The position numbers and the translations under genes were made by a program. The notes beneath the pieces were generated by a model. That model saw only the letters and a list, made by a program, of their open reading frames with translations. It was not told where the DNA came from and searched no databases. Shown in pieces: positions 7,143 to 50,278 of a stretch of 64,000 nucleotides of DNA. Source of the stretch: Cyanidioschyzon merolae (taxonomy: Eukaryota); the NCBI GenBank assembly GCA_000091205.1, contig AP006495.2, one strand, 5' to 3'. Every line of letters starts with the position of its first letter. The stretch's first letter is position 1.

Positions 7143-10100
7143 ATGCTAGGTAGCTCCGGTGCAAGTATCCAGCGGACCAGGGAGGTTCAGTCCCCAAAAC
7201 GTCGTGGTGACGTTCGATCTTTTGGTCATGCAAAGGCGGCAGGTGTCAGGTCACCACAGGTGACGGGATTCGTCCCGGAACTATGTCCACGCTGGGGCGC
7301 ATGCCCTGCTAGGCAGACTCGTCGCAGACACACAGCAGCGCACTGTGTCGTGCGTCCAAGCAGCGTCTATCCGCGAGCAGTGTGCTCCTTCGTGAGCAGC
7401 AGCTGGAGGCTCGCACTGAAGCACATCGAGACAGCGTCAACTGGGAGCGTCCAGCGACGCTTGCTCGGCCTACAAGCGTCGTCAGACTCGAAGGACTCGA
7501 CTGGGGCACCAACGGCGCGTTTGGAGCCGGTTTTTCAGACCGCAGAACACGTTGCTGCGCACTATGCGGTGGAGATTGAAGCTGGACTCAGTACGAGCCG
7601 TGCTCGCGAACTCTTGCGCATTCATGGACCGAACGCGCTTCCCGAACCGGAACCACAGACGCTCGTTCAACGAGTGCTCAAACAGTTTGACGATCGTCTG
7701 GTGCAGATCCTTCTGGTCGCTGCCGGCATATCCTTTACGTTGGCAGCAACAGCAAAGGAGCGAACGGCTTCCGCGTTCCTAGAGCCTGTCATTATTCTAA
7801 CGATTCTGCTCTTGAACGCTGGTATCGGGGCGATCCTCGAGTCGCGAGCAGACGAGTCCATCAGGGCCATGCGAGCCTATATGAGCGAGGAGGCTGTGGT
7901 TGTCAGGGATCAGGGCGCTAGGTCGTGTATACCAGCGCGGGAGCTCGTGCCTGGTGACGTCATTGAACTACGAGCCGGTGACCTGGTGCCAGCGGATGCT
8001 CGTGTCGTGCGGTTACTCTCGAATACGCTCCAAGTCGACGAGTCGATTCTCACCGGTGAGTCCCTTGCAGTGGACAAATACGTTGAGGCAATGGAGCAGG
8101 CGAAAGATGCACGAGGCACCGGTCGACTTCCGTACCAAGAGCAGCGCAATATGTTGTTCACAGGCTCCGTGTTGACCAGGGGTCGCTGCCTCGCTATCGT
8201 GGTCGCAACTGGCGAAAATACTGCTGTCGGTACAATCCGTGGCCAACTCGTACGGAGAAGCAGCAGCAGCAGCAGCAGCAGCGCTAGTCGCAAGAATGGT
8301 GAAACGGAGTTAGCCACGGAAGCGACTACCGAAACCCCGCTGGTGGAGCAGATGAATCGCCTGGGAGACCTGCTCACCAACCTTGTGCTGGGTATTTGTG
8401 CAGCGGTATTCGCGCTCAATCTTGTACAGGAAATCCAACAAGTACCCCTTGCCATGATCATTTCACAACAACAGGTCGATTTAAGTCGTATTCTCGAGCA
8501 GGTCATCGAATCCTTCAAATTCTCGGTGGCTCTGGCTGTAGCTGCAGTTCCCGAGGGTCTGCCTGCTGTAATCACCACCTGCCTAGCCCTCGGAACGCAG
8601 CGCATGTCGAAGCGCAACGTACTTATCCGCTCCCTGCCCTGCATTGAGACACTCGGCTGCACATCTGTGATTTGTTCGGATAAGACCGGGACACTGACCC
8701 AGAATCGCATGCGCGTCGTGGAACTCGTACCGGTACATGATTCGCTCAAGGAGGCGCTCTCGCTGGTGCTTGCACTCTGTTCAGAGGCCACCCTGGATGG
8801 ACGAGGTGATCCGACGGAGCTCGCATTGCTGCGAGCCGGCGAAGAGCTGCGACCCTCCGACAGTAACCGAGCATTCTGGGAGTCGCATGCACGAATCCTG
8901 CAGGTCAATGAGTTCGATCGTGTTCGGAAACGCATGAGCGTCGTCGTTACCTGCAGCGTGCCGGTTTTGTCGACGGCGAATACGAACGATCACAAAAGCA
9001 CCTACACGTATTCACTAGTCAAGGGCGCACCAGAGACTGTTCTGGAACAGTGCTCCTTCGTTGAGCCAGACGCTGTAGCATACTGGTCAGAGCAGACGAG
9101 GGAACGCTCACGTAGCGGTCTTCGCTGTATTGCACTGGCTATCCGAGAATGCACCAGCGACGCTGCACAGGACAGTGCCGAGAAACAGCTCACGTTCCTG
9201 GGACTCGCTGCCCTGCAGGATCCTCCGCGTCCAGGAGTCCGTGAAGCGATCGCTCGCTGTCGACAAGCAGGTATTCGGGTAGTGATGATCACGGGGGATC
9301 ACGCCTTGACGGCATCTGCAATTGCCGCTCAAGTCGGTATCCTCGATACCTCCATGATCGCAGATGCCGCAGCGGAGAAGAGCGGTACCTTGACGCCTAC
9401 AGTGGTGCTCGGTGCGGACCTCGAGAGCAACCGTTACACCCCAGACCAAGTGGCAGCAGCGCGAGTGTTTGCACGCGTCGAACCGAAGCACAAGCTACAG
9501 ATCGTCGAGACGCTGCAGCGGACCCGCAGCGAAGTCGTCGCCATGACCGGGGACGGTGTCAACGATGCACCGGCGTTGGCTGCTGCGGACGTCGGCGTCG
9601 CCATGGGAACCGGAACCCAGGTTGCAAAGGCCGCTGCCGACATGGTCATTGTCGACGATAATTTCGCTACGATCGTCTCAGCTGTGGAAGAGGGCCGCTC
9701 CATCTACGCCAATATGCGGCAGTTCATCCGCTATCTCCTCAGCAGCAATATTGGTGAGGTGATTGCCGTCCTGGTGAGCTCGCTTTGGCTGCACGTTCCG
9801 GAGATTCTGTCACCGGCGCAGTTGCTCTGGGTGAACCTCATTACCGACGGTTTACCTGCCATCGCGTTGAGTTTCAACCCGACGGATCCGGAGGCCATGC
9901 AACGGCCGCCTCGTCGGCGCGATGAACCCTTCCTACGTACCCAGGGTGGACTCGGTGGTGACCTTGCCCGTTATCTGGCGATTGGTACATACGTTGGTCT
10001 CGCTTGCGTCTTCGGATACCGTGGATTCATAGACAACACCGTCCAAGCGCGCTCCGTGGCCATGTCAGTGCTTGTCACTGCCGAGATGGCCAATGCCTTG

Positions 10101-10370
10101 AATGCGGTATCGGAAACCGAGTCGATTATCCTGCAGCCACATTTGATGGTGTCGAATCGTTGGCTCCTGGGTGCCGTGCTTGCCTCAATGGCACTGCAGC
10201 TGATCGTGCTTGAGAGTCCTCTGTCGCAGACAGCTTTTGGAGTCGAGCGCCTTTCTCTTGGGGATTGGCTATTTGTGGTGGGCGCCTCCGTTCCCGTCAT
10301 TGCCGTTGATGAAGTGTTCAAATTCTTTCTGAGAAGAGCGCGGGCGAAACGGTCGAGTCAGGGTTCGTGA
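7143..10370 (+). CDS. SERCA-type (P2A) Ca2+-transporting P-type ATPase
   Basis: 1075-aa ORF with CSDKTGTLTQN, TGDGVNDAPAL and PEGLPAVITTCLALGTQRMSKRNVLIRSLPCIETLGCTSVICSDKTGTLT, close to SERCA. An N-terminal extension of about 130 aa precedes the conserved SERCA start, and a poly-Ser insertion is encoded by (AGC)8 at 8259-8283. Confidence 0.9.
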   Translation: MLGSSGASIQRTREVQSPKRRGDVRSFGHAKAAGVRSPQVTGFVPELCPRWGACPARQTRRRHTAAHCVVRPSSVYPRAVCSFVSSSWRLALKHIETASTGSVQRRLLGLQASSDSKDSTGAPTARLEPVFQTAEHVAAHYAVEIEAGLSTSRARELLRIHGPNALPEPEPQTLVQRVLKQFDDRLVQILLVAAGISFTLAATAKERTASAFLEPVIILTILLLNAGIGAILESRADESIRAMRAYMSEEAVVVRDQGARSCIPARELVPGDVIELRAGDLVPADARVVRLLSNTLQVDESILTGESLAVDKYVEAMEQAKDARGTGRLPYQEQRNMLFTGSVLTRGRCLAIVVATGENTAVGTIRGQLVRRSSSSSSSSASRKNGETELATEATTETPLVEQMNRLGDLLTNLVLGICAAVFALNLVQEIQQVPLAMIISQQQVDLSRILEQVIESFKFSVALAVAAVPEGLPAVITTCLALGTQRMSKRNVLIRSLPCIETLGCTSVICSDKTGTLTQNRMRVVELVPVHDSLKEALSLVLALCSEATLDGRGDPTELALLRAGEELRPSDSNRAFWESHARILQVNEFDRVRKRMSVVVTCSVPVLSTANTNDHKSTYTYSLVKGAPETVLEQCSFVEPDAVAYWSEQTRERSRSGLRCIALAIRECTSDAAQDSAEKQLTFLGLAALQDPPRPGVREAIARCRQAGIRVVMITGDHALTASAIAAQVGILDTSMIADAAAEKSGTLTPTVVLGADLESNRYTPDQVAAARVFARVEPKHKLQIVETLQRTRSEVVAMTGDGVNDAPALAAADVGVAMGTGTQVAKAAADMVIVDDNFATIVSAVEEGRSIYANMRQFIRYLLSSNIGEVIAVLVSSLWLHVPEILSPAQLLWVNLITDGLPAIALSFNPTDPEAMQRPPRRRDEPFLRTQGGLGGDLARYLAIGTYVGLACVFGYRGFIDNTVQARSVAMSVLVTAEMANALNAVSETESIILQPHLMVSNRWLLGAVLASMALQLIVLESPLSQTAFGVERLSLGDWLFVVGASVPVIAVDEVFKFFLRRARAKRSSQGS

Positions 10371-13019: not shown

Positions 13020-14000
13020 AATATTAAGGTCTATTAGATCCCATTTGTAGAGGATGTGATGGGTGCCGCACCCCGCACAGGTCCAGCGGCCGCGTTTTCG
13101 TTGGATACGCTCGCGTGCGCTCGGCCACCGGGGAAGCAACGAAAGCGCGCTCTATGTTCCTTCATGTCAATGGTACTCCATATCCTGGTGCGTCTCATCA
13201 TATGCTTTTTTGCGGTTTATAGAAGATTTGTTCGAAATGCATTCATTTGAAGAAACAGAGAGAATCCAAGGAAAATTATAGACTGAAATTCGGGGATCCA
13301 GAAGGGCCCTCATCACCGCGTTATACCAGCGAACGAAAAATCCCCTAGTCGCCGACCATCGAGCGAAGAGGAACAAGTGACGAAGAAGCGGAAGCAAAAG
13401 GGAGATAGTCGCCAAAACGGTGATCTCTCGACCGGACGATGACCAGACTCTAGAGGCACATAGGGAACGAGAACCAGGAATCCATGCAAAGGTGACTTCA
13501 ACAGGAGCGAAGAAACGCAAAGAGTTCGTGAGCCGCGACGGAAACGCTGCTATCAATAGCAGACGATTTGCGGCGCTGAACGCGAGAGCCGACGAGCTGA
13601 TGCGATCCAAAATTGCGAGGCAGCGTCTCAGGATCCATGTGTGCCTGGATAACACTGACCCCGATACCAGGATGCGGGTGGAAACACACTGGGAGGCGTC
13701 TGCGCGCGGGTACTCATTTTGCCTCCATTGTCATAGAACGTTTATCGTTTTCCTGACCATATATGGGCAATCACGAATGGGCAAACCGCTGTTCTCGAAG
13801 AAGCGACAGGTGAGCAAGACCGCTGCATTAGCCAGTACGGCTATTTGCACGGGTGATCGCCTACAAATCGCCAAACATACCGGAGCGCTTCGCATCGCAG
13901 GCAACGTAAAAGCAATGTGTGGCTTCTGTTTGCGACATTCTTCTATTCTGCTCTATGACGACGTCGATTTCCATCACGAATGAGCTGTCAAGGAGTACGT
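13020..14000 (+). mobile_element. Internally deleted Fanzor-family element (copy A): 5' segment, then Fanzor 3' end, then partial R1
   Basis: The 5' segment 13020-13420 aligns to 17260-17665 (copy B) and to the minus strand of 49200-49500 upstream of the full copy, for example tgcttttttgcggtttatagaagatttgttcgaaatgc versus gttttttcgcactttataagagaggcgttcaaagtgc. The R1 part is at about 13760-13990. Confidence 0.6.
13420..13760 (+). pseudogene. Fanzor/TnpB-like C-terminal fragment carrying the RuvC-III motif (VSRDGNAAINSRR); no in-frame stop
   Basis: Translation DDDQTLEAHRER...KEFVSRDGNAAINSRRFAALNARADEL aligns to copy B, copy C and the full copy. The 3' block gggtactcattttgcctccattgtcatagaacgtttatcgttttcctgaccatata is conserved. 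Confidence 0.6.
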
Positions 14001-15916
14001 GACAAAAACTGCTCTCGAGCTGCTCCTGGTGAGACCCTTTTTTTCCGATTCAAGCCAGTCGAAGGCGACATCTCTGTTGCCAAACACCGTTTTTGAAGCT
14101 CACGGATCCATCGACGAGTCGTCCGCATCCATGACACTGTCATCCGACGAATTGCTCTTCGGAAAGTCATTCTCTTCCTGAACCATTCCTGAGCTGGTGT
14201 CTCTCAGCTATGCTTGTTTGCGGGAGGGAGCGAAAATGCGCGCCTCGGTCCGTGAACATCGCCCTTGGGAGCCGCTAAAGAGATTGATGCTCAGGAATCG
14301 TGGAGATATATGTAGGAGAAACAGAGTTCTGGAACAAGTTCCACTCAGTGCGTCGAAGGAGATGCTTTAAACGCTCCAGACAGCACATGAGACTCTGTTC
14401 GATTCGCTTGCAGTTTCGGTTGTATGGAGGCAAGAGTCAGGCATTCGCCAACTTGTGCGATAACTTGCAAAAAAGCAAATGGTCGATATCTCGAGTTGTC
14501 ATGCTGTAGTCAATGGCACTGGACGTGCAGTAACGCGCGAGCGCTGCACTCCGATTCCTTTGACGACAGCGTACATGGAGTGCAGGAATCGGCGCTTTCA
14601 GATTTCCTTCCATGAGTTCAGGACGACACCATTGCATCACGGGCGCGGGTGCATGTTGAATCAGGTACAGATGGAGAGCGTGAAACGGATCCGAATGCAC
14701 GAGATGGTGCTCACTAAGCTGAGCGGACGCCAGCTGACGGGGCGATCCCAGGTCCAAGGCTTGCTGTGAGGTGACGCTACCAGCAAACCTGCACACAAGC
14801 ACGTTCTACACCGAGACCCAAAACGCCTCGACCATCATCCGGGGATATCTTTTGCGTCCGAAGCATCCAGCGGCCATATGTCGAGCAAGCCTTCGAGGGT
14901 ATCGTTTGGTGATCAGTGTGGGCATTTTGCTGAAACGCGGAAGGCATGCGATGAAGAAAATCAGTAACCAGGAGAGAGGGGAATGGATTCTTTCGGGAGC
15001 GAGGCACTGGTATTGGACGGTCAGCGATCGAGCACGATTGATCACTATATACATCCGCAACGATTTTCCTTGGCAACTAGTGAACATTAGCAATGTTCAA
15101 TTACTCGATATCACCGTGCATATGCTCGACGCGAACGGCCGTACGATCGCCCCAGACTGCACTGTTACCGTACGACGTTCGTGGTAGCGTCTCCCGCGCT
15201 TTCGCAAGCGATCAGATTTCGCGAGACACCTACCGGGAAGCCTGATCCAGCCTCTACATCATGCCTGGATTCTGGACTGGGGATGGAGGAACGAGGACGC
15301 ATCACCATGTGCGGGGCGCTCCATACTCAACAAACTGGAAGCTTTTGCGCATCCGTCGGAATCTGGTCCGATGCACTGATCCAGTACACACTAAAATAAA
15401 GCAGTGACGATGGAGGGCGGTGCCTTTGACACCGTAAAGCTCGCTTGACAGCGACCGCATGGACAAGAGGGTGAAGTGCGCGGTTCCGCGGCGCGCTCGC
15501 CACGGGAAATGGCGCCCCAAGTGAAAAAGCGGTCAGAACACGTGCTCATACAAGGTCGAATGCGTTGGTTGCTCCCTCGGTTACCGACCAAAACCGCTTA
15601 CCACGATGGCACTTTGCATATCGATGATGTTTATCCAACGTTAGTGACAATGACGCAGTGCAGCGAATCATCTAGAGAATATATCTCTGGTTCCAGTGCA
15701 GACACGCCATCATGAATGCATTCAGTGATGCCCGTCACAATGCGCTTCGCTGGGAACACGCTATCCCCATTCGATGAAGCGCGGTACGGCAGGCCACGTA
15801 GACCTTGAAAACCCTTGCATTTGCTTGGCGCTGCAACACGAATCCGTTCAGGCATCGGAAAAGTGAACCGCTGCAATTCGGCATAGCATGCAGACCTTGA
15901 ACGCTGTCACGAGACG

Positions 15917-17026
15917 TTAGTTCTCTTCACTTGGAACCCCTGAAGCATCGGCTTCGCGAATTTTCTGCTCCAGCGCAGTGACCGTCTCGTCGATCTCACG
16001 AATGACCCTTCCCGAGTGGATGAATACGGCGCTGCGAAGCGCCTCAGACGAAGCGGTCGTCCAGATGCTCTTAGAGGCGCGTCTCATGTGCCAGAGGCTA
16101 CCCACGTGGATGAAGCGACAGGAAACGCCGAATAGAGACATGGACTCCGGTGTTTGTAGCCTGCACGAGTGGATATACGAATCCCATGGAAACCCGCAAG
16201 ACTCCTCTAACGTGGGGATGCACCAAAAATGTTTGAAGCACTGTAAAAAGAAACGCTGTGCGTCGAATCCGACACGATACAAGGCTGGTGATCCGTTTCG
16301 CCAGCTGCCGCGGGATTTGTCTTCGGTCAGCGAGCAGCCGCTCTGAACAGCGAGCAGTTGCTCTCGGGCCAGGTTACGAGCTTCGATTTCAACCTCAGAG
16401 AGCCAGTTGTTTTGGATAGGCACTGCATCCAGCTCCATCAGAAAGATCGCATGGTAATTGTTCCAGATTTGGTTGTGACCGATACTGCAGACAAATGTCA
16501 ACAGCGGCCCGTTAAATCTGCTGGAAATCGTACCAGATTTGGTCATGTTGTACACATCGTGCTCTGGTTTGAGGCCGCAGTCAAGAAAGCGTATCGACCG
16601 GAAGCAGTTCCGACAATAAGCGTTTCTTTCAAATTCATTGACTATTCGTGTACGATCCGTAACGTTCAATGCCCGACTCGTGAGCACAACCAAGTCCGGT
16701 CGGTCTTCCAGGTTTGCTTTGCCGCTGCGTTCCGAGTCCTTTGAGAACAAGCAAGGCGCAGCACCACTCGCGCCTGTGTTCGGTCGCCAATAGCGAAAGT
16801 TGGCCCGCAACGTGACCAGGTCAGCGGAACTGCCCAACGGTACCACAACTGCAAAGAGGCGACTGACCGGCAACCGTTCAGGCGGCTCCTCAACAATGTC
16901 AGTTCCAAGCGGCCTTCTCAGCAGCCATAGCGCAGGGAGCGCTGCACACGTAAACGCAGCAACCAAATACACCGTAAGTAGCAGCTGAGGTTTAAAGCCT
17001 GAGTAGCTGCTGGTCTTGCTTCGCAT
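15917..17026 (-). CDS. Type II membrane protein, possible Golgi glycosyltransferase (family not recognised)
   Basis: An ORF of about 369 aa from the ATG at 17026, with an N-terminal TM anchor (LLLTVYLVAAFTCAALPALWLL) and a luminal domain with an ELDAVP (DxD-like) motif. No confident family match from memory. Confidence 0.35.
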   Translation of the reverse strand: MRSKTSSYSGFKPQLLLTVYLVAAFTCAALPALWLLRRPLGTDIVEEPPERLPVSRLFAVVVPLGSSADLVTLRANFRYWRPNTGASGAAPCLFSKDSERSGKANLEDRPDLVVLTSRALNVTDRTRIVNEFERNAYCRNCFRSIRFLDCGLKPEHDVYNMTKSGTISSRFNGPLLTFVCSIGHNQIWNNYHAIFLMELDAVPIQNNWLSEVEIEARNLAREQLLAVQSGCSLTEDKSRGSWRNGSPALYRVGFDAQRFFLQCFKHFWCIPTLEESCGFPWDSYIHSCRLQTPESMSLFGVSCRFIHVGSLWHMRRASKSIWTTASSEALRSAVFIHSGRVIREIDETVTALEQKIREADASGVPSEEN

Positions 17027-17589
17027 TGTACGTTTTCGCTTCAACTAGGCAAAGAAGCGCTTTTTCTTGTCCCCAGCGCCACCTGCTCTGCGCTCGGGAG
17101 CTTCTGGAGACTATGAATGAAAAGCACGCACAGCACGCTCCTCGGCTCGCAGCGGTTTACCTGAATATTTGGCGTAGCTGTAGTGTGAGCACGTTTTACA
17201 CGCAAAAAAACCTCAGGAAAAGCGAACGTGATAAGTTGTCACGTTACATGGAAATCCGTGTTTCCGTTGATAGACTGCTTTGGGTAGCTTTATGTCATGG
17301 GGATCTGTTTGTGATGCGGCGACGACGACGACGACGACGCGCGCGGCATCTCGTACGGATACACGCTTGCAGTATTTCATCTCAATTGGGTTCCATCATC
17401 ACGCACGTGTCGTCAAATGCTATTTCGCGGTTTATTGCAGAGACATTCAAAGCGCGTTCCGTGGAAGGAATAAAACATCCCAGGGGAATGCACGGACCAA
17501 GTCGGGGACCCCGAAGGATCGTCCTCGCCAGGTGCCAGAAAAAACGAAAAATATCCTCTTGTCATCGAGTTTAGAGCGAAGAAGAGCAA

Positions 17590-17982
17590 GTGACAAAGAA
17601 GAAAAAGATGATGATTCGTGTTGGTAGGCGATTCAACGTGTACGCACGACGGAACGATGACGAGACTATGGTGGCACAGAGGGAACGAGTGCTAGGAATC
17701 CTTACAAGGATGACTTCAAGCATCCTCAATGCACGCAGTGAGCTCGTGAACCGCGACTTGAACACTGCTATCAATACCAGACGATTTTCGGTGCTGAACA
17801 CGAAACCCCAAGAGCTGACGCGAGCCAACTTCGTGGAGCAGCCTCTGATACTCAAAATGTGTAAGGAGAAGCTGGAGCCGATAGCAGGCGGCCGGTCAAA
17901 AAATGGTTGGGTGACGTCTGCGGGTGGGTATTCATATACCCTACATGATCGTGCGAAAACTTTTGTTTCAGTGACCACATAG
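17590..17982 (+). CDS. In-frame internally deleted Fanzor/TnpB-like ORF (130 aa): about 35 N-terminal residues fused to the C-terminal RuvC-III segment
   Basis: MMIRVGRRFNV resembles MVAKAFVLRQF, the N-terminus of the 49166 ORF upstream of the full copy. ERVLGIL...VNRDLNTAINTRRFSVLNTKPQELTRANFVEQPL aligns to aa about 570-630 of the full copy. The stop TAG is at 17980-17982. Confidence 0.5.
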   Translation: MTKKKKMMIRVGRRFNVYARRNDDETMVAQRERVLGILTRMTSSILNARSELVNRDLNTAINTRRFSVLNTKPQELTRANFVEQPLILKMCKEKLEPIAGGRSKNGWVTSAGGYSYTLHDRAKTFVSVTT

Positions 17983-18028
17983 TGCATGTGAATAAATCTG
18001 TTCTGATGTATAGCTCTTCGGGATCCGC

Positions 18029-18952
18029 TTGTCGCGCTTGCTCGAGCGAGATTTCGCGCTTGCGAACGACACCAATGCTACCTGCCTGGCCGTGCTCGGT
18101 TTCATGAGCTCAACGAAAGACCAGAACAGCGTGGGTGAGTTAGAAGACTTGGCCTTATGGGCAGTGGAAGCTCTTACGGTGGCGCTTGTCCCTCCTGACG
18201 ACACGCTATGCTGTCTCGATTCGCGAGCGTTCGGGCTCCTCGGTACGCCTGGAGAAACTGGTTTTCAACACGCGAGCATCATCGAGCAGTTCCGAGACGA
18301 CCTCTCCCGAAATAATAGACCGCACTTGGTCACGAGTGATGCCGGCGTTGAAAACCTCGCTGAACGCAGAGTCGATGGCTGTGTCACTTTCGGCGCCTTA
18401 GACAGCGCTTTCGCCGACGAGGCCTCCTGCGAGTCCGTGCTACGAACAGTCGCCCGCCTGCTGTGCTCAGGTGGAAAGTTCTTTGGTCTCTGTGTGGACA
18501 GCGCAAGCCTATGGACACCACTGCGGAAAGCTTACGAGGCACGACAGACTGGGCGGGCTGCTCCTGCACCCAGCGTCGATATTCGGCTACCGTACCGGGC
18601 AAGCGACGCGAGCTTCTGTATCGCCATGGATCCGGATGCGAATGCACTCTTTCGCTCCGCATACGGACACGTGTTTACGCTGGGCGTGGGCACAAGAACA
18701 AAAGCCTCGTCTCGAAAGTGCTATCTTGTGAACTTTGGAGAACTGATTCGAGTCGCATCACGCGTAGGTCTCGAGTACCGCGAGGCCTTGAACTTGAAGG
18801 ATTTTTGGGAAGAATTTCATCGCCCATTACAGTATTGTGAGGAGATGCGTAGCTTTTACCGACGCTTCCAAGGTCAAAAATTTCGACCAAGTCCAGCGGC
18901 GCTCGAGGGCGCTGCGTATTTCTCCGTATTTGTCTTTGAAGCAGTGTCCTGA
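18029..18952 (+). CDS. Element-borne class I methyltransferase-like protein resembling the C-terminal two-thirds of mRNA cap guanine-N7 methyltransferase (RNMT/Pox_MCEL family); the SAM-binding motif I was not recognised
   Basis: 307-aa intact ORF. The block [39 protein letters not shown] resembles the RNMT block [71 protein letters not shown] resembles [32 protein letters not shown], and [11 protein letters not shown] resembles SIYLVFAFEK. Degenerate paralogous copies of this ORF follow every Fanzor 3' fragment (copies A, C and E). Confidence 0.45.
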   Translation: [307 protein letters not shown]

Positions 18953-20676
18953 GCACATGCATTCCAACCTTTTAACAAATATCGTTTCTGACTAAACGCC
19001 CAATACTGAAAGCTGTAAGCATAAAGGGCCTCTGCCGTCAGAAATCATTGCTCTACCGAATGCATTAGCAGTTCGCTGCCAAGAAGCAACGATGCAGCAA
19101 ACCGACTCTAGAGCGCATCGGCGAGATGGAATCGCGCGGGCAGCGGCATCCGTTGCTCTGACTCTCCCATGTCGCATGTAGTGTTCCTTCTGCTGCTCTC
19201 AGAGCGGCAACAAGTGCTCTTCCATAAACGTGCCCTCATGGTCCACAAGCATGCGTTGACTTGCATCCAGGGTGCATTCAAGGCTTCTCTGAGAGCAGCG
19301 TTCGCACGAGCGATCGCGCGTCCCAGATACCGCTCCAAGCATGTACGAATCTGACTGCAGCTCAGTACTTCAACGTTTCGACCCGGAACGCTAAGGCTTC
19401 GACAACGCATCCACGTCCATCATTAGAGCTCCAGCAACATACTCGATCCGTTATGTACCAGATATGTGCGTCAGTGTTCATCTGGTCTACTGGTATCGCG
19501 GCTCAAAATCAGAGTCGCAAAACACCGCACACTTGCACGCTGCACGCACGCTACTTGCTCAATCCAAGCTCTACTTTATTCGCTGAGCCAGGATTTATGA
19601 GAGCAGCGAAACAGAAAATCGGGTCTTTGAAGGCATTGTTTCTCCAGTGATCACAAGGTCCAACAGCTTGTTCAAAACAGGGGCGGCGCTGGGCTCCAGG
19701 CCCAACGACGGTGCGCCGTCAACGCAACGCGGCCGTTCTGTGAGACGTCGTCGGGACGCCTTTGCGAGCTGCTTTCGAGGTGCAACGAACATCGCGCAAC
19801 GCTTAATTGCTACGCAGACTAGAGCTCGTGCGCAGCTGTTCCAGGTGCGCCTGTGAGCGTCGTGTCAGTACCTGCCACGGCAGCTGGTGCTCTGCCCAGC
19901 GTCATGCGAACAGCGCCAACGCGGCAGCAGAGCACTTGAGTACCCCGAAGACGGGTGCCAGCTGGTCTAACTTGGCGCACTACGCAATTGACACTGCAAG
20001 TTATCGATAAATCTTCAAGTGCAGGAAAGGCACCTGAGCGCTGGAGTCCATAGGTACCGAGCTTCCGAGAAACGACAACCAGTTGACGATAAGAGTCAAG
20101 TCAAAGCATTCAGCGCTCTGTACGCGTCTTTCCTCGCAGGCAACTGCAGTTTACAAACAGCTTCGATCCCCGCGCGTACGTCTCTACCAAAGGTTGCGCT
20201 ATGGTCTCCCAAGTCACTACGACTGCCTCGCAGACGAACGCTTGCTCTCGGGGGACCTGGTGCGGCTCCTCGCGCACCGCTTCCTATCTCGCAGTGCCAC
20301 GGGTCCCAGCGCTTAGTGACGCACCCAGTTCATAAAAAGTCGAAGCAGAGAAAAATTCGTCTCTCCGATCGAAAAGACATCAGCCGGGCTATATTTGGAA
20401 CGTGCAGCGGCTCCCGGTTTGCCACCCAGGGAAGCACACTCCCAGTCTACAGCTCTGAGCATGGCAAGTCGAAGTCCGCGGCCGAGGCACGCAATAGGTC
20501 TCGCGCCGTCCATCAGTCCTTTTTGTGTAATAATAAAACTAAATAATCTATTTGATACCGTTTCCCTTGTGACAACGACCACGAGAGGCAAAACCTGGAC
20601 CTCCGCATCAGCCGAGACCATCCACCGTCACCACTGAAGGCCACCTATTGGTGTTCCCAAACGTCGGGAACACTTC

Positions 20677-22035
20677 ATGGAAGCCGAACAAGACTCGAGA
20701 CTGAAGGATGCGCTTGGCAACCTCCACAGAGCAGGGAAAATAGCTCACGTTGATCCCGAAGTCCTCAAGGTGCTCTCGAGTCCAAAGGAAAGCCTCATTA
20801 CCGCAGTGCCGGTGCGTATGGACTCGGGGAAGCTCGAAGTATTTCGCGGGTACCGCGTCCGTTGGAACGATGCACGAGGTCCGACTAAGGGAGGCATTCG
20901 TTTCCATCCGTCCGTTTGTCTCGATGAAGTGAGCGCGCTGGCCTTTTGGATGACCTTTAAGTGTGCGGTTGCAGATATCCCGTTTGGTGGTGCCAAAGGC
21001 GGCGTGGCCTGTAACCCCCGTCAGCTCTCTCCGAGCGAACTGGAGCGCCTCAGCCGCTCATATGGGCGTAGTATTAGTCTGGTAATTGGCCCCGATCGGG
21101 ATATCCCTGCACCGGATGTCTACACGAACACACGCATCATGGGATGGATCATGGAAGAGTACGAACATACGCATGGCGGAATCCGACAGCCAGCCGTGAT
21201 AACCGGCAAGGCGGTTGCCCAGGGTGGGTCTCCAGGACGCGACGATGCCACCGCTCGTGGTGCCTACTACCTCATCAAGGAGATGGAAACGAGCACACAT
21301 CGTGAGCTGCTCTCAGGCGCTAACGGGCCGATAACGGTAGCGATCCACGGTTTCGGGAACGCTGGCCAGCACATCGCTCGCTTGCTAGCCCACGATCGCA
21401 AGTACCGCGTGGTCGCAGTGTGCGATAGTCGGACGGGCGTCTTCTGTCGTGAGGGCGTCGACGTCGATCGTTGTGTTGAGGTGAAAGCCGAGACCGGTGC
21501 ACTGGACGCCGAGCGCGTTGGACACGGAGCCACTAGCCTGGAACCCACGGCATTGCTGCTGCTTTCTGTGGACCTCCTGGTACCGGCGGCAATAGAGAAC
21601 GTGATTCATTCAGAAAATGTTGGCCAGATTAAAGCGCGGTTGATCGTTGAACTTGCCAATGGTCCGGTGTCTCCGGAGGCGGACAGAGCTCTCGCCTCGC
21701 GGAACGTGGACGTGATCCCGGATATCCTTGCGAACTCGGGCGGTGTGATTGTTTCCTACTATGAGTGGGTCCAGAGCCGCACCGGCCAATGGTGGAGCGC
21801 TGAACAGGTCCACGAGCGTTTACAGGCCAAAATGGTCCATGCGTACCGGGCTTTGTTCGAACTGCTTCAAAGGATTCGCGCATCGCCGACGGGGACTGCA
21901 TCGGCGGAGACTGACGGGGCACTGGGCGCGCTCACGTTCCGCGATGCGGCCTACGTACTCAGTCTACAACGCATTGCGGCTGCGATTCAGGCAACAGGGG
22001 GTAGTGCCTTTTTCGAAAAACGCAGCCATATGTGA
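20677..22035 (+). CDS. Glutamate dehydrogenase (Glu/Leu/Phe/Val dehydrogenase family, GdhA-type)
   Basis: 452-aa ORF with ATG at 20677. Contains GPTKGGIRFHP, the active-site region IPFGGAKGGV, and a Rossmann motif GFGNAGQHIARLLA. Confidence 0.85.
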   Translation: MEAEQDSRLKDALGNLHRAGKIAHVDPEVLKVLSSPKESLITAVPVRMDSGKLEVFRGYRVRWNDARGPTKGGIRFHPSVCLDEVSALAFWMTFKCAVADIPFGGAKGGVACNPRQLSPSELERLSRSYGRSISLVIGPDRDIPAPDVYTNTRIMGWIMEEYEHTHGGIRQPAVITGKAVAQGGSPGRDDATARGAYYLIKEMETSTHRELLSGANGPITVAIHGFGNAGQHIARLLAHDRKYRVVAVCDSRTGVFCREGVDVDRCVEVKAETGALDAERVGHGATSLEPTALLLLSVDLLVPAAIENVIHSENVGQIKARLIVELANGPVSPEADRALASRNVDVIPDILANSGGVIVSYYEWVQSRTGQWWSAEQVHERLQAKMVHAYRALFELLQRIRASPTGTASAETDGALGALTFRDAAYVLSLQRIAAAIQATGGSAFFEKRSHM

Positions 22036-24849: not shown

Positions 24850-26300
24850 CGCCGAAGCATCCAGCACACTGTGACACACCCGGGCACATTTCGTGGTCCT
24901 TCCGCAGGTCCTTCACCTTTGGGGAAGGTCCTCACCTAAACGCATAAAATAGTGCATTCATTTTCAGGAAATAAAAAATCGATGGTATGAGTTTGGATGC
25001 ACACTTCAGAACAAAGAGATGGAGAAGAGCCAGCGGAGCGCTTCGGTGATAGAAAAGCACCGAGAGCTGACACAGAACCAAATGACACAGAGTGAACGAG
25101 TTCTAGGAATCCTTGCATTGGTGGGTTCACGCAGCGACGATAAACGCATGGAGTTCGTGATACGAGACCTCAACGCTGCCATCAATATCCGACGATATGC
25201 AGAGCTGAAGACGAAACCCGCAGAGCTGTAACGATCCAACTTTATGAGGCGACCTATTAGGATCGAAGTTTGCAACGAGAAACTGAAACCGACAACAAGC
25301 AGCTGATCGAAAACGACTGGGTGGCGTCTGCACGTGGATACGCATCTACCCTACATAATCGTGCGACAATTTTTGTTCCACTGACCACATACCATGTCTG
25401 AATAACTTTTTGGCGTCCTCCTGTGACGACTCGTCGGCAAGCTCACGCAGAAATTTCACTGAACTTGTCAAGTCAAATACTCGATTCCATTTGAAAGACA
25501 ATGCCTTCTCACTTGGTTGCTATCGATGGAACCACGGTCGACTTCAGTTCGACAAATCCCGGGAGATACGCACGCAGTGGCTGTCTTCTCTTGTATTTGC
25601 GTGGAAAAGGTCTGGGGCGCGGACTCTAGTCACAGCGGTGATCTCTTCGGGTGCAGCGTGCGTCACGACTTCGCATGGGCGGAGCGTAGACGAATCGAAT
25701 TTTCTCGACTTGATCTCCAGCATGGATTACCATACCGGCGCTCGTTTCATCATGGACAAGCTTGCGTTCCACAAATCCTCTTTCGAATGGGACAGCGTGT
25801 GCTTGGTCGTCCTACGGATATTGAGTTCGCCACGGGCATCGCCCTAAACAAGTCCATGATCGTTGGGTCCGGCAACTGGCTGGCGCGGAAACCTTCCAGG
25901 ACGTCGCGGGGAGCCTTCTGGATCCGTCACGGGCCTGTGCCGGGCGATGCAGCGAGCGGTCACGCACCGCAGGGCGCCAATCTGAGGACGACAAATGGAG
26001 AATACACTCGAATGCCTGACTACCGACGAGTGGCACTGCTACGAAAGGCGCATCCGGGCTCTATACAAACAAGCGAAAAACGGCTGGCGAGGCGTCGATC
26101 GCAGCATTCGCCTGTGCATGGAAAACATGAAAAACATTCGAAAACAGCGTGATCAGGAGTTTAGCGCTGCCACGAACATCTTGCGACTGCTGAAAAAAGA
26201 GCTGGAAGCACAGGAGAGACTGGGGCATTTAAAACCTGAAAAAAGATACCCTCAAAGGGAACAGTTGGAAAAAGTCTGCAAAGGCTGGCATTGATAAAAC
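24850..26300 (+). mobile_element. Internally deleted Fanzor-family element (copy C): 5' segment, then frameshifted Fanzor 3' fragment, then degenerate R1/methyltransferase-like region
   Basis: 24985-25391 aligns at nucleotide and protein level to aa about 536-650 of the full copy. 25393-25810 aligns to 1140-1560 and 18000-18300. Confidence 0.55.
24985..25391 (+). pseudogene. Fanzor/TnpB-like C-terminal fragment (RuvC-III: IRDLNAAINIRR), frameshifted
   Basis: GCTLQNKEMEKSQRSASVIEKHRELTQNQMTQSERVLGIL...MEFVIRDLNAAINIRRYAELKTKPAEL aligns to the full copy's [40 protein letters not shown]...[16 protein letters not shown]. The downstream frame is shifted (RSNFMRRPIRIEVCNEKLKP). Confidence 0.6.
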
Positions 26301-26779
26301 CGGGAACAGACTCAAACTTTCGTTCACGCGCCCGAGCTGGCGTGCCCGTTCCGCTGAGTTTTCACCTGGGTGCTTAGCTCATGCACGAACGCGCTAGGAC
26401 TCGTTCAGAAAACGGACCCCTCTACAGACGCACCTCATGGAAAACCCCATGCTCACCGGGGCGCCGTCTTACGTCTCAACCCAATGCTGCCTTTTGCTGC
26501 GTTTCGCTCTCCAATCAACCTACGCCTCAGGCGATACGCCCATGAGCGCAGGTAACAAACCTACAATCGAAGCGTCTAGGCAGCCGGCAGCGTTGCGGTC
26601 GAGAGGGTGTCCCCGTGTCGCTCGGCCAATATCGTCCATAAATATACAACATAGAACAACCCATGAGGCTCCAGCTCCGATGACCTGCCTGCGAGCGATC
26701 CATTCGGCGTGCTTCCTGCGCGAACGATACCCGTCGAACAGCAGTGAGGGTGTTTCAGGTAACCGCGTCCAAGGGCACT

Positions 26780-29709: not shown

Positions 29710-29960
29710 GCGAAGCGGAAATCGCAACCGTGGGCTTTACATGTCACGCGTTGACAATAGCAGGAATCAGCGTAATCGGGAGTTTAAAGCCGCCATCAAC
29801 ATCCTTCGATAACTGTCAACGGATTCAGAGGCACAGGAGGGACGGATCCAGTGAACTCGATAACTACTACAGAGGAACAGGAAGCAGTGGCAAACGCAAC
29901 CCGCGTAGTCTAATGTTGATAATATTGGGTAGAGAGTCAAAGTGTCATGTATATACGCTA
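29710..29960 (+). mobile_element. Short decayed Fanzor/TnpB-like remnant (copy G) with a RuvC-III trace
   Basis: One frame reads NRGLYMSRVDNSRNQRNREFKAAINILR*, resembling [33 protein letters not shown] of the full copy. Downstream, ggaagcagtggcaaacgc resembles ggaagcagtagtaggcggcc. Confidence 0.4.
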
Positions 29961-46864: not shown

Positions 46865-46962
46865 GGCGCACACCGCTGAACGCCGTTCTAAAGTAGAACG
46901 TCGTCGGCGGTGTACAGTAGTAGCGACCGGTGCGCCTTGGACAACAAGTCGCCTACTGACGT

Positions 46963-48913
46963 GCAGACGCTTCCTAGGCTTTTTCGACCGGCCGCCTACT
47001 ACTGCTTCCAATTGTGTCTCATATAGTAAAACCTTAAGAGGTTGTCCAACAAAATTCTCTCGTGTCATCTCTGGAGGTCTGTTCTCCAACACCGCACATC
47101 TCCTTATATTGATGGCGGTAATAAAATCTCGGTTCACAAAATCCATCCGTTTCGTGCCGTTGGGAGTTGTACTTACTAATGCAAGCAGTCCACGAACTTT
47201 CGCTCTCCTTTCCATTTGCTCTTCCGTCAGCTGTCTATACTTTGCTATATCCTCAGGGCTCCTCTGGCACTTTTCCATCTCGACTCTCTGAAGTGTTAAC
47301 CCCTGTTCATGGTGTGTATACGATGTTCGAAACTCATCTACAGGTATCGTAACGAAACGCCTTGCACACTCCTTGTACATTCTTGTCGTTGGAGCTGGTG
47401 TAGTGCCTTTCTTGGGCACCCATCGTCCTGCTCCGTCCGCTACGACGAGCCTCTGACTTTCCTCCTCCTTCAGGGCGCTCAACTCATTCAAAAAATTCGC
47501 GAACGCCCGCTGCCTCCCACCGTATAGATTCATTCGCAGACGAGCCCACCGGGGCTTGGTATACTCCTCCCATAGCGCATCCCAGTGCGCCATGCGAACT
47601 TCCATGAATTTCCGGACAGCTTCAAAGTCCGCTCCTCGGCTCGTCACCTTACTCAAAGCTTCCAGGTGCTCTTTCATTCCTGGATTCCAAGTCTCGATTT
47701 TCTTCCTCGCATTCATGATTCCCGATTCTCGATAGTATATTGCTCTCGAGAACTTCAAAAGACGCATGTCTTTCTGACGCATGCCGCCGTCAGTGCCATC
47801 TTCCAAACGCTTGGGTACTGCGATGGTGATGATATTTGTGTTTCCGAGGTCCGCGCCAACGACAAAGTCGTTATCATGCACTTTCTGCGCGGCAGGATCC
47901 CCCTCCTTCTCATCTTTATGCATCGCCGCGCCAACGACAAAGTCGTTAGCTTGCACCTCCTGCACCACAGGATCCGCTTCCTTCCCATCTTCATCCTTCA
48001 TCACGTCAACGACAAGGTCGTTATCCTGCACCTCCTGCATCACAGCATCCGCCTCCTTCTTTTCTTCATGCTTCGTCACGGGCGCAGCCGAGGGCGGAAC
48101 TGGACGATCTTTCTTCAACCGCCGACAGAGTACACACGTGGCTACTCCATCGGTTTCGATCAACCCAGTGAATACCTTCTTCGTGCTCACTTTGAGACGT
48201 TTGAAATCGAAGCTGCTCATCCAGTACGTCTCCCGGTTTCCGCCGGTGAAGTCCTCCCTGCTTACATCGAACTCCGGACAGATATCCCTCATGATGCCGT
48301 AAAGGACGCCGGAGTCGATAGTCACAAAATGTGACTTGATCTTGCACATTGGAACCACGTTGAATCGCTTCCGCATTAGGACAGCCTTCCGTCTCTCCCA
48401 CTCTTCCTTTGTCTCTTCACTCAGCTTCATCTCCGCTTTGCGTTCGAGCTCTCGGTCCAGAAACACAAAATAGCGCAGGACGAGGCGATCGTATCTTTCC
48501 CTATCTTTTTTCAGCTCTGATATCTTGTCTGTTGGATTCGCCAGGCCCAGTATCGCACGATGCTCTTTAATAACCGCACGGATTACGGAATCCTCATTCA
48601 TGCTCTCGTTTGAAACCTTCTTCTCGACAAATTTGATCTCATCTTCATGCTTGCGATCTTTCATGATGCCATTGATAATCGCCCATTTTCCATTACGAGA
48701 GATGCCCGGGTATAGCGCAAACACTGCGCATATCATGAAACGTTCCAGGTTCATTGTAAAATGGTTCTTCACATTCGTGAGGTACTTCTTCGCCCCGAAG
48801 GTGTAAATATCCCAGTCAACCTTGTTTAGAGTACCCTCGAATCTGTAAAAGGGATGTTTTTCGTGGAGGGCGTGCACTCGCTCATCACTCGTCGAACATT
48901 TTTCCTGTGCCAT
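46963..48913 (-). CDS. Fanzor1-like (eukaryotic TnpB/OMEGA-type) RuvC nuclease, main ORF (aa about 1-650 of the 1287-aa read-through ORF)
   Basis: Has RuvC-I ([19 protein letters not shown], compare GIDLG) and a TnpB-like segment [16 protein letters not shown] (compare VDPAYTSQTCSVCG, Cys ligands lost). RuvC-III is [18 protein letters not shown] (compare DRDVNAAINI). At the canonical RuvC-II position the sequence reads LVVADG (E replaced by A). Confidence 0.7.
47857..48055 (-). repeat. Three in-frame tandem repeats of about 69 bp inside the Fanzor ORF, immediately N-terminal to RuvC-I
   Basis: [53 protein letters not shown] and [18 protein letters not shown]. Also visible as repeats on the plus strand at 47781-48302. 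Confidence 0.7.
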
Positions 48914-49166
48914 GCATGAAGTGGCGGTTGAATGTCTTGTTGAAAAATTCTCCCGGAACCTCGACTGTTTTGATGCCCATCACGTTGTCGTACATCTCCC
49001 ACGCCAAATGCATTATTCCTGAAGAAGCCTTTGTTATACTCATGGAGTAGCACGCGCCACGTTTTCTGATGGCCTCCCATGACTTTTGCTTGGAGGGATC
49101 CTTGAATTGGCGTAGAACAAATGCTTTCGCCACCATTTCTTCGTACTGTTGTCTTTCAAGTTGCAT
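48885..49166 (-). CDS. Probable N-terminal segment (about 90 aa) of the Fanzor protein, separated from the main ORF by a 1-nt frame shift in an A5 run
   Basis: The ORF MQLERQQYEEMVAKAFVLRQF... ends [11 protein letters not shown] overlapping the main ATG (ggaaaaatg). Removing one A gives a continuous ...[14 protein letters not shown]... Its N-terminus is conserved in the mini-ORF of copy B. Confidence 0.45.
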   Translation of the reverse strand: MQLERQQYEEMVAKAFVLRQFKDPSKQKSWEAIRKRGACYSMSITKASSGIMHLAWEMYDNVMGIKTVEVPGEFFNKTFNRHFMHGTGKMFDE

Positions 49167-50149: not shown

Positions 50150-50278
50150 ATCCATCCATGCATCTATCTATCTACCTATCTATCTGTCTATCCATGCATG
50201 CATCTACCTATCTATCTGTCTATCCATGCATGCATCTATCTATCTATCTATCTATCTATCTGTCTATCTGTCCATCTG
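50150..50278. repeat. Compound (TCTA)n-based microsatellite with about 3 higher-order units of 32-36 bp (ccatgcatgcatctacctatctatctgtctat)
   Basis: Read directly at 50150-50278. A GC-only run (gccgccgccaccgccgcctccgccgccggcg) follows at about 50400-50440. Confidence 0.85.

What the first reader, a model, noticed from the sequence alone, without database searches (positions are those of the whole stretch)
18029..18952. mRNA-cap-(guanine-N7)-methyltransferase-like ORF carried downstream of every derivative Fanzor copy
Copy B has an intact 307-aa ORF starting 46 nt after the Fanzor stop. Its C-terminal two-thirds resemble RNMT/Pox_MCEL: the VDGCVTFG...[10 protein letters not shown] block matches [12 protein letters not shown]...[36 protein letters not shown] matches [27 protein letters not shown], and [11 protein letters not shown] matches SIYLVFAFEK. 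Degenerate homologues of this ORF (the R1 region) follow the Fanzor 3' end in copies A, C and E and occur alone in F. The full copy D is instead followed by PCCB.

A cap-methyltransferase-like passenger travelling with a TnpB-family nuclease is not an association I know of. The canonical SAM motif I was not seen, so it may be a non-catalytic scaffold, or its N-terminal half may be encoded elsewhere in the autonomous element.
Basis: partly seen in the sequence, partly recalled or inferred. Interest (0 to 1): 0.7.

Follow-up and report, generated by a model that had tools for sequence, protein, structure and literature searches.

The report
Degenerate cap-methyltransferase-like host gene, not transposon cargo
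The ORF is a real, conserved, single-copy red-algal gene with the fold of an mRNA-cap methyltransferase but without its cofactor-binding motifs, and it merely sits next to one dead Fanzor transposon relic rather than travelling with Fanzor elements.

Summary
The ORF at 18029-18952 exists. Its real start is probably the ATG at 18104, giving 282 aa. The window is Cyanidioschyzon merolae 10D.

The cap-(guanine-N7)-methyltransferase resemblance is real:
- Pfam PF03291 matches below threshold.
- A family profile finds PF03291 proteins, including plant "cap guanine-N7 methyltransferase 2-like".
- The top 39 Foldseek PDB matches of an AlphaFold model are all cap N7 methyltransferases.

The whole domain is present. 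The AdoMet motifs I and II, the N-terminal Lys and the cap-binding His-Tyr are replaced in all four orthologues, so it is probably a pseudo-methyltransferase.

The Fanzor-passenger claim fails:
- No second copy exists in the window by blastn, nhmmer, tblastn or a family HMM on six frames.
- "R1" is a different repeat, a DDE_3 transposase fragment fused to a TnpB/Fanzor C-terminus.
- Similarity between Fanzor relics ends at 17995, before the gene.
- Orthologues in Cyanidiococcus and Cyanidium lie in the same block (Ca-ATPase, GT49, 375-aa gene, ORF, GDH) with no Fanzor relics.
- Population variants are about ten times rarer in the ORF than in the relic.

The verdict is an ordinary host gene, apparently unannotated in 10D. 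Interest is low.

The parts
18104..18952 (+). Coding sequence (282 aa plus stop) of a degenerate RNMT-fold, MCES2-like protein. It is a conserved single-copy host gene with no NCBI or EukProt protein record for C. merolae 10D in the collections searched.
   Evidence: ORF. Orthologues start at this ATG. PF03291 matches below threshold. Profile hits are PF03291 members. Fold matches are cap N7 methyltransferases. Synteny. Low polymorphism. No NCBI accession.
18029..18103 (+). In-frame upstream extension from a TTG. This is an artefact of bacterial-code ORF calling and is probably 5' UTR or promoter, not protein.
   Evidence: The metagenome gene callers give both 307-aa and 282-aa versions.
17406..17995 (+). 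Copy B, the 3' relic of a CMe-1A-type Fanzor1 element. It is broken into several frames. Similarity to the other relics ends at 17995, which is 109 nt before the ATG.
   Evidence: Self-blastn. tblastn with D. Fanzor-family HMM hits 17575-17979 at E 1.7e-12. The 3'-end alignment is. Variant density is 11.9 per kb.
13191..13980 (+). Copy A, a Fanzor1 3' relic. It is not followed by R1 or by any homologue of the ORF.
   Evidence: HMM positions 620-673, E 9e-10.
14288..14766 (+). A further Fanzor1 relic piece covering the middle and C-terminal part (HMM positions 502-621).
24953..25405 (+). Copy C, a Fanzor1 3' relic. R1 copy c follows 8 nt later.
46900..49166 (-). Copy D, a near-full Fanzor1-like coding region. 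The N-terminal piece is in another frame. The main frame runs on without a stop into the carboxyltransferase (PCCB-like) gene.
25413..26335 (+). R1 copy c. The other copies are at 1163-2092(+), 5484-6371(+), 29045-29946(+), 52338-53246(-) and 61680-62516(-). R1 is a dispersed 0.9-kb repeat encoding a DDE_3 fragment plus a TnpB/Fanzor TNB-domain C-terminus, and it is unrelated to the ORF.
15917..17044 (-). Conserved 375-aa host gene that serves as a synteny anchor. It is inverted here relative to Cyanidiococcus, L002 and Cyanidium.
20677..22035 (+). Glutamate dehydrogenase 2 (XP_005537023.1). It is the downstream synteny anchor and identifies the organism.

Best explanation
Positions 18104-18952 encode a 282-aa single-copy nuclear host gene of Cyanidioschyzon merolae. 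It is ancestral to the Cyanidiaceae and is not part of any Fanzor element.

The protein has the complete fold of an mRNA cap (guanine-N7) methyltransferase. It belongs to, or derives from, the widespread eukaryotic RNMT-like side branch that plant databases call "mRNA cap guanine-N7 methyltransferase 2" (the At3g52210 type).

In all four cyanidialean orthologues the following are replaced:
- the glycine-rich AdoMet loop (motif I);
- the motif II acidic residue;
- the N-terminal Lys;
- the cap-guanine His-Tyr and Glu.

The C-terminal third (LVNF..EL...REALNL...[16 protein letters not shown]...FRPS...YFS.FV.EAV) is almost invariant.

Inference: the protein most likely no longer methylates caps. 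It probably works as a non-catalytic binding or scaffold protein through that conserved C-terminal surface.

The adjacent Fanzor sequence (17406-17995) is a dead 3' relic of a CMe-1A-type element. It landed in the upstream intergenic region in the C. merolae lineage, so the adjacency is coincidental.
For: Host gene, not cargo:
- The gene order Ca-ATPase, GT49, 375-aa gene family, this ORF, GDH is the same in Cyanidiococcus yangmingshanensis (L001), a metagenomic relative (L002) and Cyanidium caldarium (L007).
- Those loci contain no Fanzor-like sequence.
- There is no second copy in the window by four methods.
- The 5.8-billion-protein search finds only 3 clusters for this ORF, against at least 59 for the Fanzor protein.
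- Two full-length Fanzor loci elsewhere are followed by unrelated genes and contain no homologue of the ORF.
- Similarity among the relics ends at 17995.
- The published CMe-1A element is described as encoding only Fanzor1 (PMC3627910).

Selection:
- pN is far below pS, and dN/dS is about 0.12 for the Cyanidiococcus/L002 pair.
- There are 1.2 variants per kb in the ORF, against 11.9 in relic B and 9-36 in intergenic DNA.

Fold and family:
- PF03291 matches at E 2.6e-4.
- The exhaustive profile search gives 74 hits. The nine non-cyanidialean hits scanned are all PF03291 members above threshold, and one member is named "mRNA cap guanine-N7 methyltransferase 2-like".
- The AlphaFold model has pLDDT 76 and pTM 0.81.
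- The Foldseek PDB top 39 are all cap N7 methyltransferases (Abd1, RNMT, Ecm1, vaccinia D1, ASFV, MPXV), with E from 1e-13 to 5e-9.
- The family profile aligns to Abd1 residues 4-284 at E 5e-31.

Degeneracy:
- Of 45 distant relatives with the motif I region aligned, 23 keep GxG, 30 keep the Lys and 41 keep the motif II acid. None of the 4 cyanidialean proteins keeps all three. The one partial exception is a Glu at the motif II column in C. merolae alone.
- PMC9839713 makes the same argument for At3g52210.
Against: - The Pfam match of the protein alone is below the gathering score.
- The structure model was built with an alignment of only 14 sequences that already included RNMT-like relatives, so the fold result is not independent of the sequence homology.
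- Loss of activity is inferred from motifs only, and some methyltransferases bind AdoMet without a canonical GxGxG.
- No expression evidence was obtained. The short Logan and JGI contigs carrying the gene are genomic population variants, not transcripts.
- A canonical RNMT elsewhere in the C. merolae genome was not verified here.
- No tree was built to test placement in the MCES2-like branch.
Confidence: 0.8

Rival explanations
1. One reading: the ORF is a cap-methyltransferase-like passenger gene of a Fanzor (TnpB-family) transposon, carried downstream of the derivative copies, with R1 as its decayed homologue.
For: The ORF starts 46 nt (from the TTG) or 121 nt (from the ATG) after the stop of Fanzor relic B. 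An R1 repeat of similar length, about 0.9 kb, starts 8 nt after Fanzor relic C.
Against: - No detectable similarity between the ORF and R1 or any other part of the window.
- The R1 consensus encodes DDE_3 and TnpB TNB domains.
- Relic similarity ends before the ORF.
- The gene is at the same syntenic place in three other cyanidialean loci that lack Fanzor relics.
- It is single-copy in the databases whereas the Fanzor family is multi-copy.
- Full-length Fanzor loci lack it.
Confidence: 0.02
2. The protein is still an active AdoMet-dependent methyltransferase with a non-canonical cofactor pocket. It would act on a substrate other than the mRNA cap guanine, or on the cap in an unusual way.
For: - The complete Rossmann-type core is predicted with high confidence (pLDDT above 90 over the blocks covering residues 91-130 and 211-240).
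- The motif IV Asp (D91) and the motif V/VI segment LL.(S/P)GG.FFG..DS..W are kept.
- Strong purifying selection.
- About half of the wider family keeps GxG and may be active.
Against: All four orthologues lack every glycine of motif I and the Lys, and the residue at the motif II acid column is not conserved (E, R, A, Q). The helix after strand 2 is deleted. The literature regards the similarly degenerate At3g52210 as unlikely to be active.
Confidence: 0.17
3. The ORF is a chance open frame or a decaying pseudogene, which would explain why it has no protein record for strain 10D.
For: No NCBI or EukProt protein for it in C. merolae 10D. No transcript evidence was obtained.
Against: Intact orthologous ORFs of 281-284 aa exist in three other lineages at 38-51% identity, with a near-invariant C-terminal third. 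pN is far below pS. It has the lowest polymorphism of any feature in 9 kb. It gives a confident fold.
Confidence: 0.01

Closest known systems
Plant "mRNA cap guanine-N7 methyltransferase 2" (Arabidopsis At3g52210 / MCES2) and its eukaryote-wide RNMT-like relatives
   Same: - These are the best non-orthologous hits of the family profile, at E 1e-13 to 1e-9 over 1.84 billion proteins.
- They share family-specific motifs: W at the N-terminal helix, LL.PGG.FFG..DSS..W, LVHF..L.R.A and FxTFVF.
- Like At3g52210, the protein lacks the AdoMet motif VLxLxxGxGxDL.
   Different: - The cyanidialean proteins are shorter (about 282 aa).
- They lack the helix after strand 2.
- They have lost the Lys, and the motif II acid is not conserved, although most relatives keep both.
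- They carry their own invariant C-terminal motif, [16 protein letters not shown].
- Orthology versus independent divergence was not tested by phylogeny.
Canonical mRNA cap (guanine-N7) methyltransferases: RNMT, Abd1, Ecm1, vaccinia D1, ASFV pNP868R (PF03291, EC 2.1.1.56)
   Same: Same overall fold, with TM about 0.6-0.67; all of the top 39 structural matches are from this group. Colinear alignment over the whole domain.
   Different: - Only 10-20% identity.
- Below the Pfam threshold as a single sequence.
- Abd1 residues replaced: GCGKGGD to DSRA-FG, Lys of NNAIK to Val, motif II Asp to E/R/A/Q, Gln-Phe and His-Tyr of TQFCLHY to F-G and D-S, Glu of PEY to C/G/G/A.
CMe-1A Fanzor1 element of C. 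merolae (Bao and Jurka 2013, PMC3627910)
   Same: The neighbouring relics and copy D fit its description. They are an old multi-copy family. Copy D is about 70-77% identical (52-90% overall) to many metagenomic copies. It shows RuvC-like motifs: [15 protein letters not shown] and [12 protein letters not shown] (GADPGNTN and NRDFNAAINIRR in the family consensus).
   Different: CMe-1A is described as encoding only Fanzor1, and the methyltransferase-like ORF is not part of it. Formal TnpB membership of copy D could not be shown with Pfam, NCBIfam, PHROGs or PDB sequence searches; relatives carry only DUF8286.

Membership tests
mRNA cap (guanine-N7) methyltransferase, PF03291 / EC 2.1.1.56 | Sequence match to the family model at the curated threshold | tested here: not met
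   20.6 bits against a gathering score of 26.6, E 2.6e-4, residues 112-262 only. Homology is nevertheless supported by profile searches.
mRNA cap (guanine-N7) methyltransferase, PF03291 / EC 2.1.1.56 | Class I methyltransferase fold with the cap-methyltransferase-specific architecture | tested here: met
   AlphaFold model with pLDDT 76 and pTM 0.81. The Foldseek PDB ranks 1-39 are all cap N7 methyltransferases, with E from 9.5e-14 to 4.5e-9 and TM up to 0.67.
mRNA cap (guanine-N7) methyltransferase, PF03291 / EC 2.1.1.56 | AdoMet-binding motif I (VLD/ELGCGKGGD) and an acidic residue at the end of strand 2 (motif II) | tested here: not met
   Aligned segments are [39 protein letters not shown] and LRSLLPDTLGDNG. 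The motif II column holds E, R, A and Q.
mRNA cap (guanine-N7) methyltransferase, PF03291 / EC 2.1.1.56 | Cap-guanine and triphosphate contact residues (Lys of NNxxK, Gln-Phe and His-Tyr of motif IV, Glu of PEY) | tested here: not met
   Lys becomes V/L/L/S. QF becomes FG/FC/IH/LT. HY becomes DS/DS/DS/DQ. Glu becomes C/G/G/A. Only the C-terminal aromatic residue (YF) is kept. Which residues contact the cap is taken from established knowledge of the Ecm1, Abd1 and RNMT structures.
mRNA cap (guanine-N7) methyltransferase, PF03291 / EC 2.1.1.56 | Catalysis of N7 methylation of GpppN-RNA | not testable with these tools
   Requires a biochemical assay.
MCES2 / At3g52210-like RNMT paralogue branch | Closest relatives outside the orthologue group are members of this branch and share its signature motifs | tested here: met
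   One named member is "mRNA cap guanine-N7 methyltransferase 2-like protein" from Drosera capensis.
MCES2 / At3g52210-like RNMT paralogue branch | Monophyly with the branch in a phylogeny that includes canonical RNMTs | not tested
   No tree was built and canonical RNMT sequences were not collected. Support comes from score ranking only: about 60 bits to the branch in the library search against about 20 bits to Abd1 in the PDB search, both with the same three-sequence profile.
Transposon passenger (cargo) gene of a Fanzor/TnpB element | Lies inside the element, between its termini | tested here: not met
   Similarity among relics A, B, C and D ends at or before 17995. The ATG is at 18104.
Transposon passenger (cargo) gene of a Fanzor/TnpB element | Copy number and distribution follow the element | tested here: not met
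   There is one copy in the window against five Fanzor pieces. There are 3 database clusters plus Cyanidium, against at least 59 Fanzor clusters. It is absent from L018 and L019.
Transposon passenger (cargo) gene of a Fanzor/TnpB element | Absent from orthologous sites that lack the element | tested here: not met
   It is present at the syntenic site in L001, L002 and L007, which have no Fanzor relics.
Fanzor1 / TnpB (for the neighbouring relic and copy D) | RuvC-like D/E/D motifs and a match to TnpB-family models | tested here: inconclusive
   Motifs are visible by eye in copy D, and the literature reports the CMe-1A Fanzor1 family in this species. There is no significant Pfam, NCBIfam, PHROGs or PDB sequence match. 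The unrelated R1 consensus does reach PF07282.

The most novel reading that the evidence does not exclude
The Cyanidiaceae have kept a catalytically dead RNMT-fold protein under strong purifying selection for a very long time. It would act as a non-enzymatic cap-, RNA- or partner-binding factor, for example a regulator of the true cap methyltransferase, through its invariant C-terminal surface. It would also be a missing gene in the C. merolae 10D reference annotation. A weaker add-on is that in C. merolae its promoter or 5' UTR now lies in or against a Fanzor relic.
Probability: 0.45. Interest if true: 0.3.

Novelty: new member of a known kind. Interest (0 to 1): 0.12.

Why it matters
The proposed link between a TnpB-family nuclease and a capping-type methyltransferase would have been a new kind of transposon cargo, but it is not there.

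What remains is modest. The C. merolae 10D reference protein set appears to lack a conserved gene. That gene adds a red-algal branch to the little-studied "RNMT2/MCES2" group of cap-methyltransferase-like proteins, whose plant member is already thought to be inactive.

It could serve as a small, compact example for asking what RNMT-fold pseudoenzymes do.

The side observation that R1 joins a DDE_3 transposase fragment to a second Fanzor-type C-terminus is of some use for transposon annotation in this genome.

Tried and rejected
- **Searches for a second copy of the ORF in the window.** tblastn, blastn with word size 7 and nhmmer, the R1 nhmmer profile and a family HMM on six frames were all negative.
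- **First structure prediction.** The three-sequence alignment gave a poor model (pLDDT 51) and was not used. The 14-sequence alignment was used instead.
- **Formal proof that copy D is TnpB/Fanzor.** Pfam, NCBIfam, PHROGs, and PDB phmmer and profile searches gave no significant TnpB hit. Relatives carry only DUF8286. Fanzor identity therefore rests on motifs and on PMC3627910.
- **Expression evidence.** The short Logan and JGI contigs carrying the gene are 99.2-99.8% identical genomic population variants without poly(A).
- **Literature on a C. merolae cap methyltransferase.** The search found nothing useful.
- **RNA genes.** Rfam and tRNA scans of the window gave no hits.
- **dN/dS against C. 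merolae.** dS is saturated, so only the Cyanidiococcus/L002 pair gives a rough value.
- **R1 as the 5' end of the Fanzor element.** This was considered and rejected, because the R1 profile does not hit the DNA upstream of copy D.
Full report
**The observation.** The window has an uninterrupted frame at 18029-18952(+) of 307 codons counted from a TTG. It begins 46 nt after the stop of a 130-aa frame (17590-17982) that resembles the C-terminus of the large Fanzor-like protein of copy D. The TTG start is an artefact of bacterial-code ORF calling. The three closest orthologues are 284, 281 and 284 aa long and start at the position of the ATG at 18104. The real product is therefore most likely 282 aa (18104-18952).

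**The organism.** The glutamate dehydrogenase (20677-22035) and the Ca-ATPase (7143-10370) are exact matches to XP_005537023.1 and XP_005537020.1 of Cyanidioschyzon merolae strain 10D. The 282-aa protein has no NCBI or EukProt record. It occurs only in JGI, Logan and ENA metagenome gene calls. It therefore appears to be unannotated in the reference genome.

**Is it cap-methyltransferase-like? Yes.**
- Alone, the protein matches Pfam PF03291 (mRNA guanine-N7 methyltransferase) at E 2.6e-4 and 20.6 bits, below the gathering score of 26.6, over residues 112-262.
- A profile of three orthologues hits only cap N7 methyltransferases in the PDB, best E 0.004.
- An exhaustive HMMER search of 1.84 billion representatives found the Cyanidium caldarium orthologue (KAK4536173.1, E 1.6e-49) and 72 more distant proteins.
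- The nine non-cyanidialean hits I scanned are all PF03291 members above threshold. One cluster member is named "mRNA cap guanine-N7 methyltransferase 2-like protein".
- An AlphaFold model built on a 14-sequence alignment has pLDDT 76 and pTM 0.81.
- Its 39 best Foldseek matches in the PDB are all cap N7 methyltransferases: Abd1, human RNMT, Ecm1, vaccinia D1, ASFV pNP868R and MPXV. E values run from 9.5e-14 to 4.5e-9 and TM reaches 0.67.
- The 14-sequence profile aligns to Abd1 residues 4-284 at E 5e-31.

**Is the N-terminal half missing? No.** The whole domain is present, but its catalytic signature is gone. Mapping onto Abd1 gives these replacements:
- The Lys of NNAIK becomes V/L/L/S.
- GCGKGGD of motif I becomes DSRA-FG, with equally glycine-poor segments in the other three orthologues.
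- The motif II Asp becomes E/R/A/Q.
- Gln-Phe and His-Tyr of TQFCLHY become F-G and D-S.
- The Glu of PEY becomes C/G/G/A.
- The helix after strand 2 is deleted.

Among 45 distant relatives with this region aligned, 23 keep GxG, 30 keep the Lys and 41 keep the motif II acid. None of the four cyanidialean proteins keeps all three, and only C. merolae has an acidic residue (Glu) at the motif II column. A published analysis makes the same argument for Arabidopsis At3g52210. It lacks the AdoMet motif VLxI/LxxGxGxDL and is judged unlikely to have RNMT activity (PMC9839713).

By contrast, the C-terminal third is almost invariant among the orthologues. I infer a pseudo-methyltransferase that works by binding rather than by catalysis. 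This step is inferred, not shown.

**Is it a working gene?** The evidence points to yes.
- Orthologues at 38-51% identity keep intact frames of the same length.
- Non-synonymous differences are far fewer than synonymous ones. pN is 0.22-0.34 and pS is 0.71-0.82, and dN/dS is about 0.12 for the least saturated pair.
- Against four 99.3%-identical population contigs, the ORF has 1.2 variable sites per kb. GDH has 3.7, the 375-aa gene 5.3, Fanzor relic B 11.9, and intergenic DNA 9-36.

**Is it carried by Fanzor elements? No.**
1. The window contains no other sequence related to 17996-19100 or to the protein. tblastn gives next-best E values of 4.8 and 5.4. blastn with word size 7 and nhmmer find only self. 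A four-orthologue HMM on 2078 six-frame segments gives self at E 2.5e-150 and the next hit at E 0.56.
2. The R1 repeat is real. Six copies of about 0.9 kb at about 60% identity lie at 1163-2092, 5484-6371, 25413-26335, 29045-29946, 52338-53246(-) and 61680-62516(-). Its nhmmer profile hits neither the ORF nor the DNA after copy A.
3. R1 has a different identity. Its consensus encodes a DDE_3 (IS630/Tc1-mariner type) transposase fragment, PF13358, at E 2.1e-6. This is followed by a TnpB/Fanzor C-terminus with CxxC...CxxC and NRDFNAAINILRL, matching PF07282 at E 5.6e-6 and 26.9 bits against a gathering score of 26.3.
4. A Fanzor-family HMM finds five pieces in the window: 13381-13980, 14288-14766, 17575-17979, 24953-25228 and copy D at 45053-49166(-). 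Only relic B is followed by the ORF. Relic C is followed by R1, copy D by the carboxyltransferase gene, and relic A by another Fanzor piece.
5. The relics align with one another only up to about 17981-17995 in B. That is 109 nt before the ATG.
6. The gene order Ca-ATPase, GT49, 375-aa gene (family), this gene, GDH is the same in three other loci. These are Cyanidiococcus yangmingshanensis (CCYA09G2585, L001), a metagenomic relative (L002) and Cyanidium caldarium (L007). None of those loci has Fanzor-like sequence.
7. The ORF family forms 3 clusters, plus Cyanidium, in 5.8 billion proteins. The Fanzor protein has at least 59 clusters.
8. Two full-length Fanzor loci elsewhere are followed by a GRAM/VASt gene and a DEAD_2 helicase gene. 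They contain no homologue of the ORF.
9. The published CMe-1A element of C. merolae has about 150 copies of about 3 kb and is described as encoding only Fanzor1 (PMC3627910).

**The Fanzor neighbour.** Copy D shows [15 protein letters not shown] and [12 protein letters not shown], and its family consensus reads GADPGNTN and NRDFNAAINIRR. These are the RuvC-like pattern expected of TnpB/Fanzor (my reading, from established knowledge of the family). However, Pfam, NCBIfam, PHROGs and PDB sequence searches gave no significant TnpB match, and its relatives carry only DUF8286. Its Fanzor identity therefore rests on these motifs and on the literature.

**Comparison with what is known.** The protein works like, and is related to, the cap guanine-N7 methyltransferase family, but it fails the defining catalytic features. 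It should therefore not be filed as an EC 2.1.1.56 enzyme. Its nearest known relatives are the RNMT-like "cap methyltransferase 2" proteins, of the At3g52210 type. With them it shares branch-specific motifs and, for the plant member, the loss of the AdoMet motif. Orthology to that branch was judged from score ranking only, not from a tree.

**Verdict.** The ORF and its methyltransferase likeness are real. The claimed association with Fanzor is not. It is a conserved, probably non-catalytic host gene beside a dead transposon relic. Interest is low (0.12). It is a new, degenerate member of a known kind.

Noticed in passing
window 1163-2092(+), 5484-6371(+), 25413-26335(+), 29045-29946(+), 52338-53246(-), 61680-62516(-); also L018 11895-12259: The R1 repeat (about 0.9 kb, about 60% identity between copies) has a consensus that joins a DDE_3 (IS630/Tc1-mariner type) transposase fragment to a TnpB/Fanzor zinc-ribbon and RuvC-III C-terminus (PF13358 at E 2e-6, PF07282 at E 6e-6). 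The six copies are colinear over about 900 bp, which suggests amplification of one internally deleted mariner-type element. It would carry a second Fanzor family, distinct from CMe-1A.
   Followed up: partly
window 18104-18952: The 282-aa gene has no NCBI or EukProt protein record for C. merolae 10D, although its orthologues in Cyanidiococcus (CCYA09G2585) and Cyanidium (CDCA07G2198) are annotated as hypothetical proteins. This is probably a gap in the reference annotation.
   Followed up: partly
window 13191-17995: The conserved 375-aa gene (15917-17044) is on the minus strand here, but its orthologues are on the same strand as the methyltransferase-like gene in Cyanidiococcus, L002 and Cyanidium, where it is a four-copy tandem family. 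The inverted segment is flanked by Fanzor relic pieces (14288-14766 and 17575-17979, both on the plus strand), so the rearrangement may be linked to the transposon insertions.
   Followed up: no
window 45050-48913(-), up to 49166: The near-full Fanzor copy D runs in frame, without a stop, into the propionyl-CoA-carboxylase-beta-like carboxyltransferase gene, giving one 1287-codon ORF. Fanzor homology ends near residue 660 and a plausible PCCB start (MRDTSW...) follows. The Fanzor N-terminal about 90 residues lie in another frame (48888-49166).
   Followed up: partly
window 17970-17995, 25380-25405, 13760-13775: The 3' ends of relics A, B and C share a terminal ...CTGACCACAT motif, and B and C also share a following TGAATAA, after which similarity stops. 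This may mark the right end of the CMe-1A element, whose termini the literature could not define.
   Followed up: no
window 40394-40880 vs 49668-50153; 49980-50077 vs 61246-61149; 47851-48080; 50148-50276: Further unexplained repeats. There is a 490-bp pair at 67% identity and a short related piece. There are also short tandem repeats inside copy D's coding region (a 75-nt period matching the repeated KDE.KEADP..QEV..ND.VVG peptide) and near 50150-50276.
   Followed up: no
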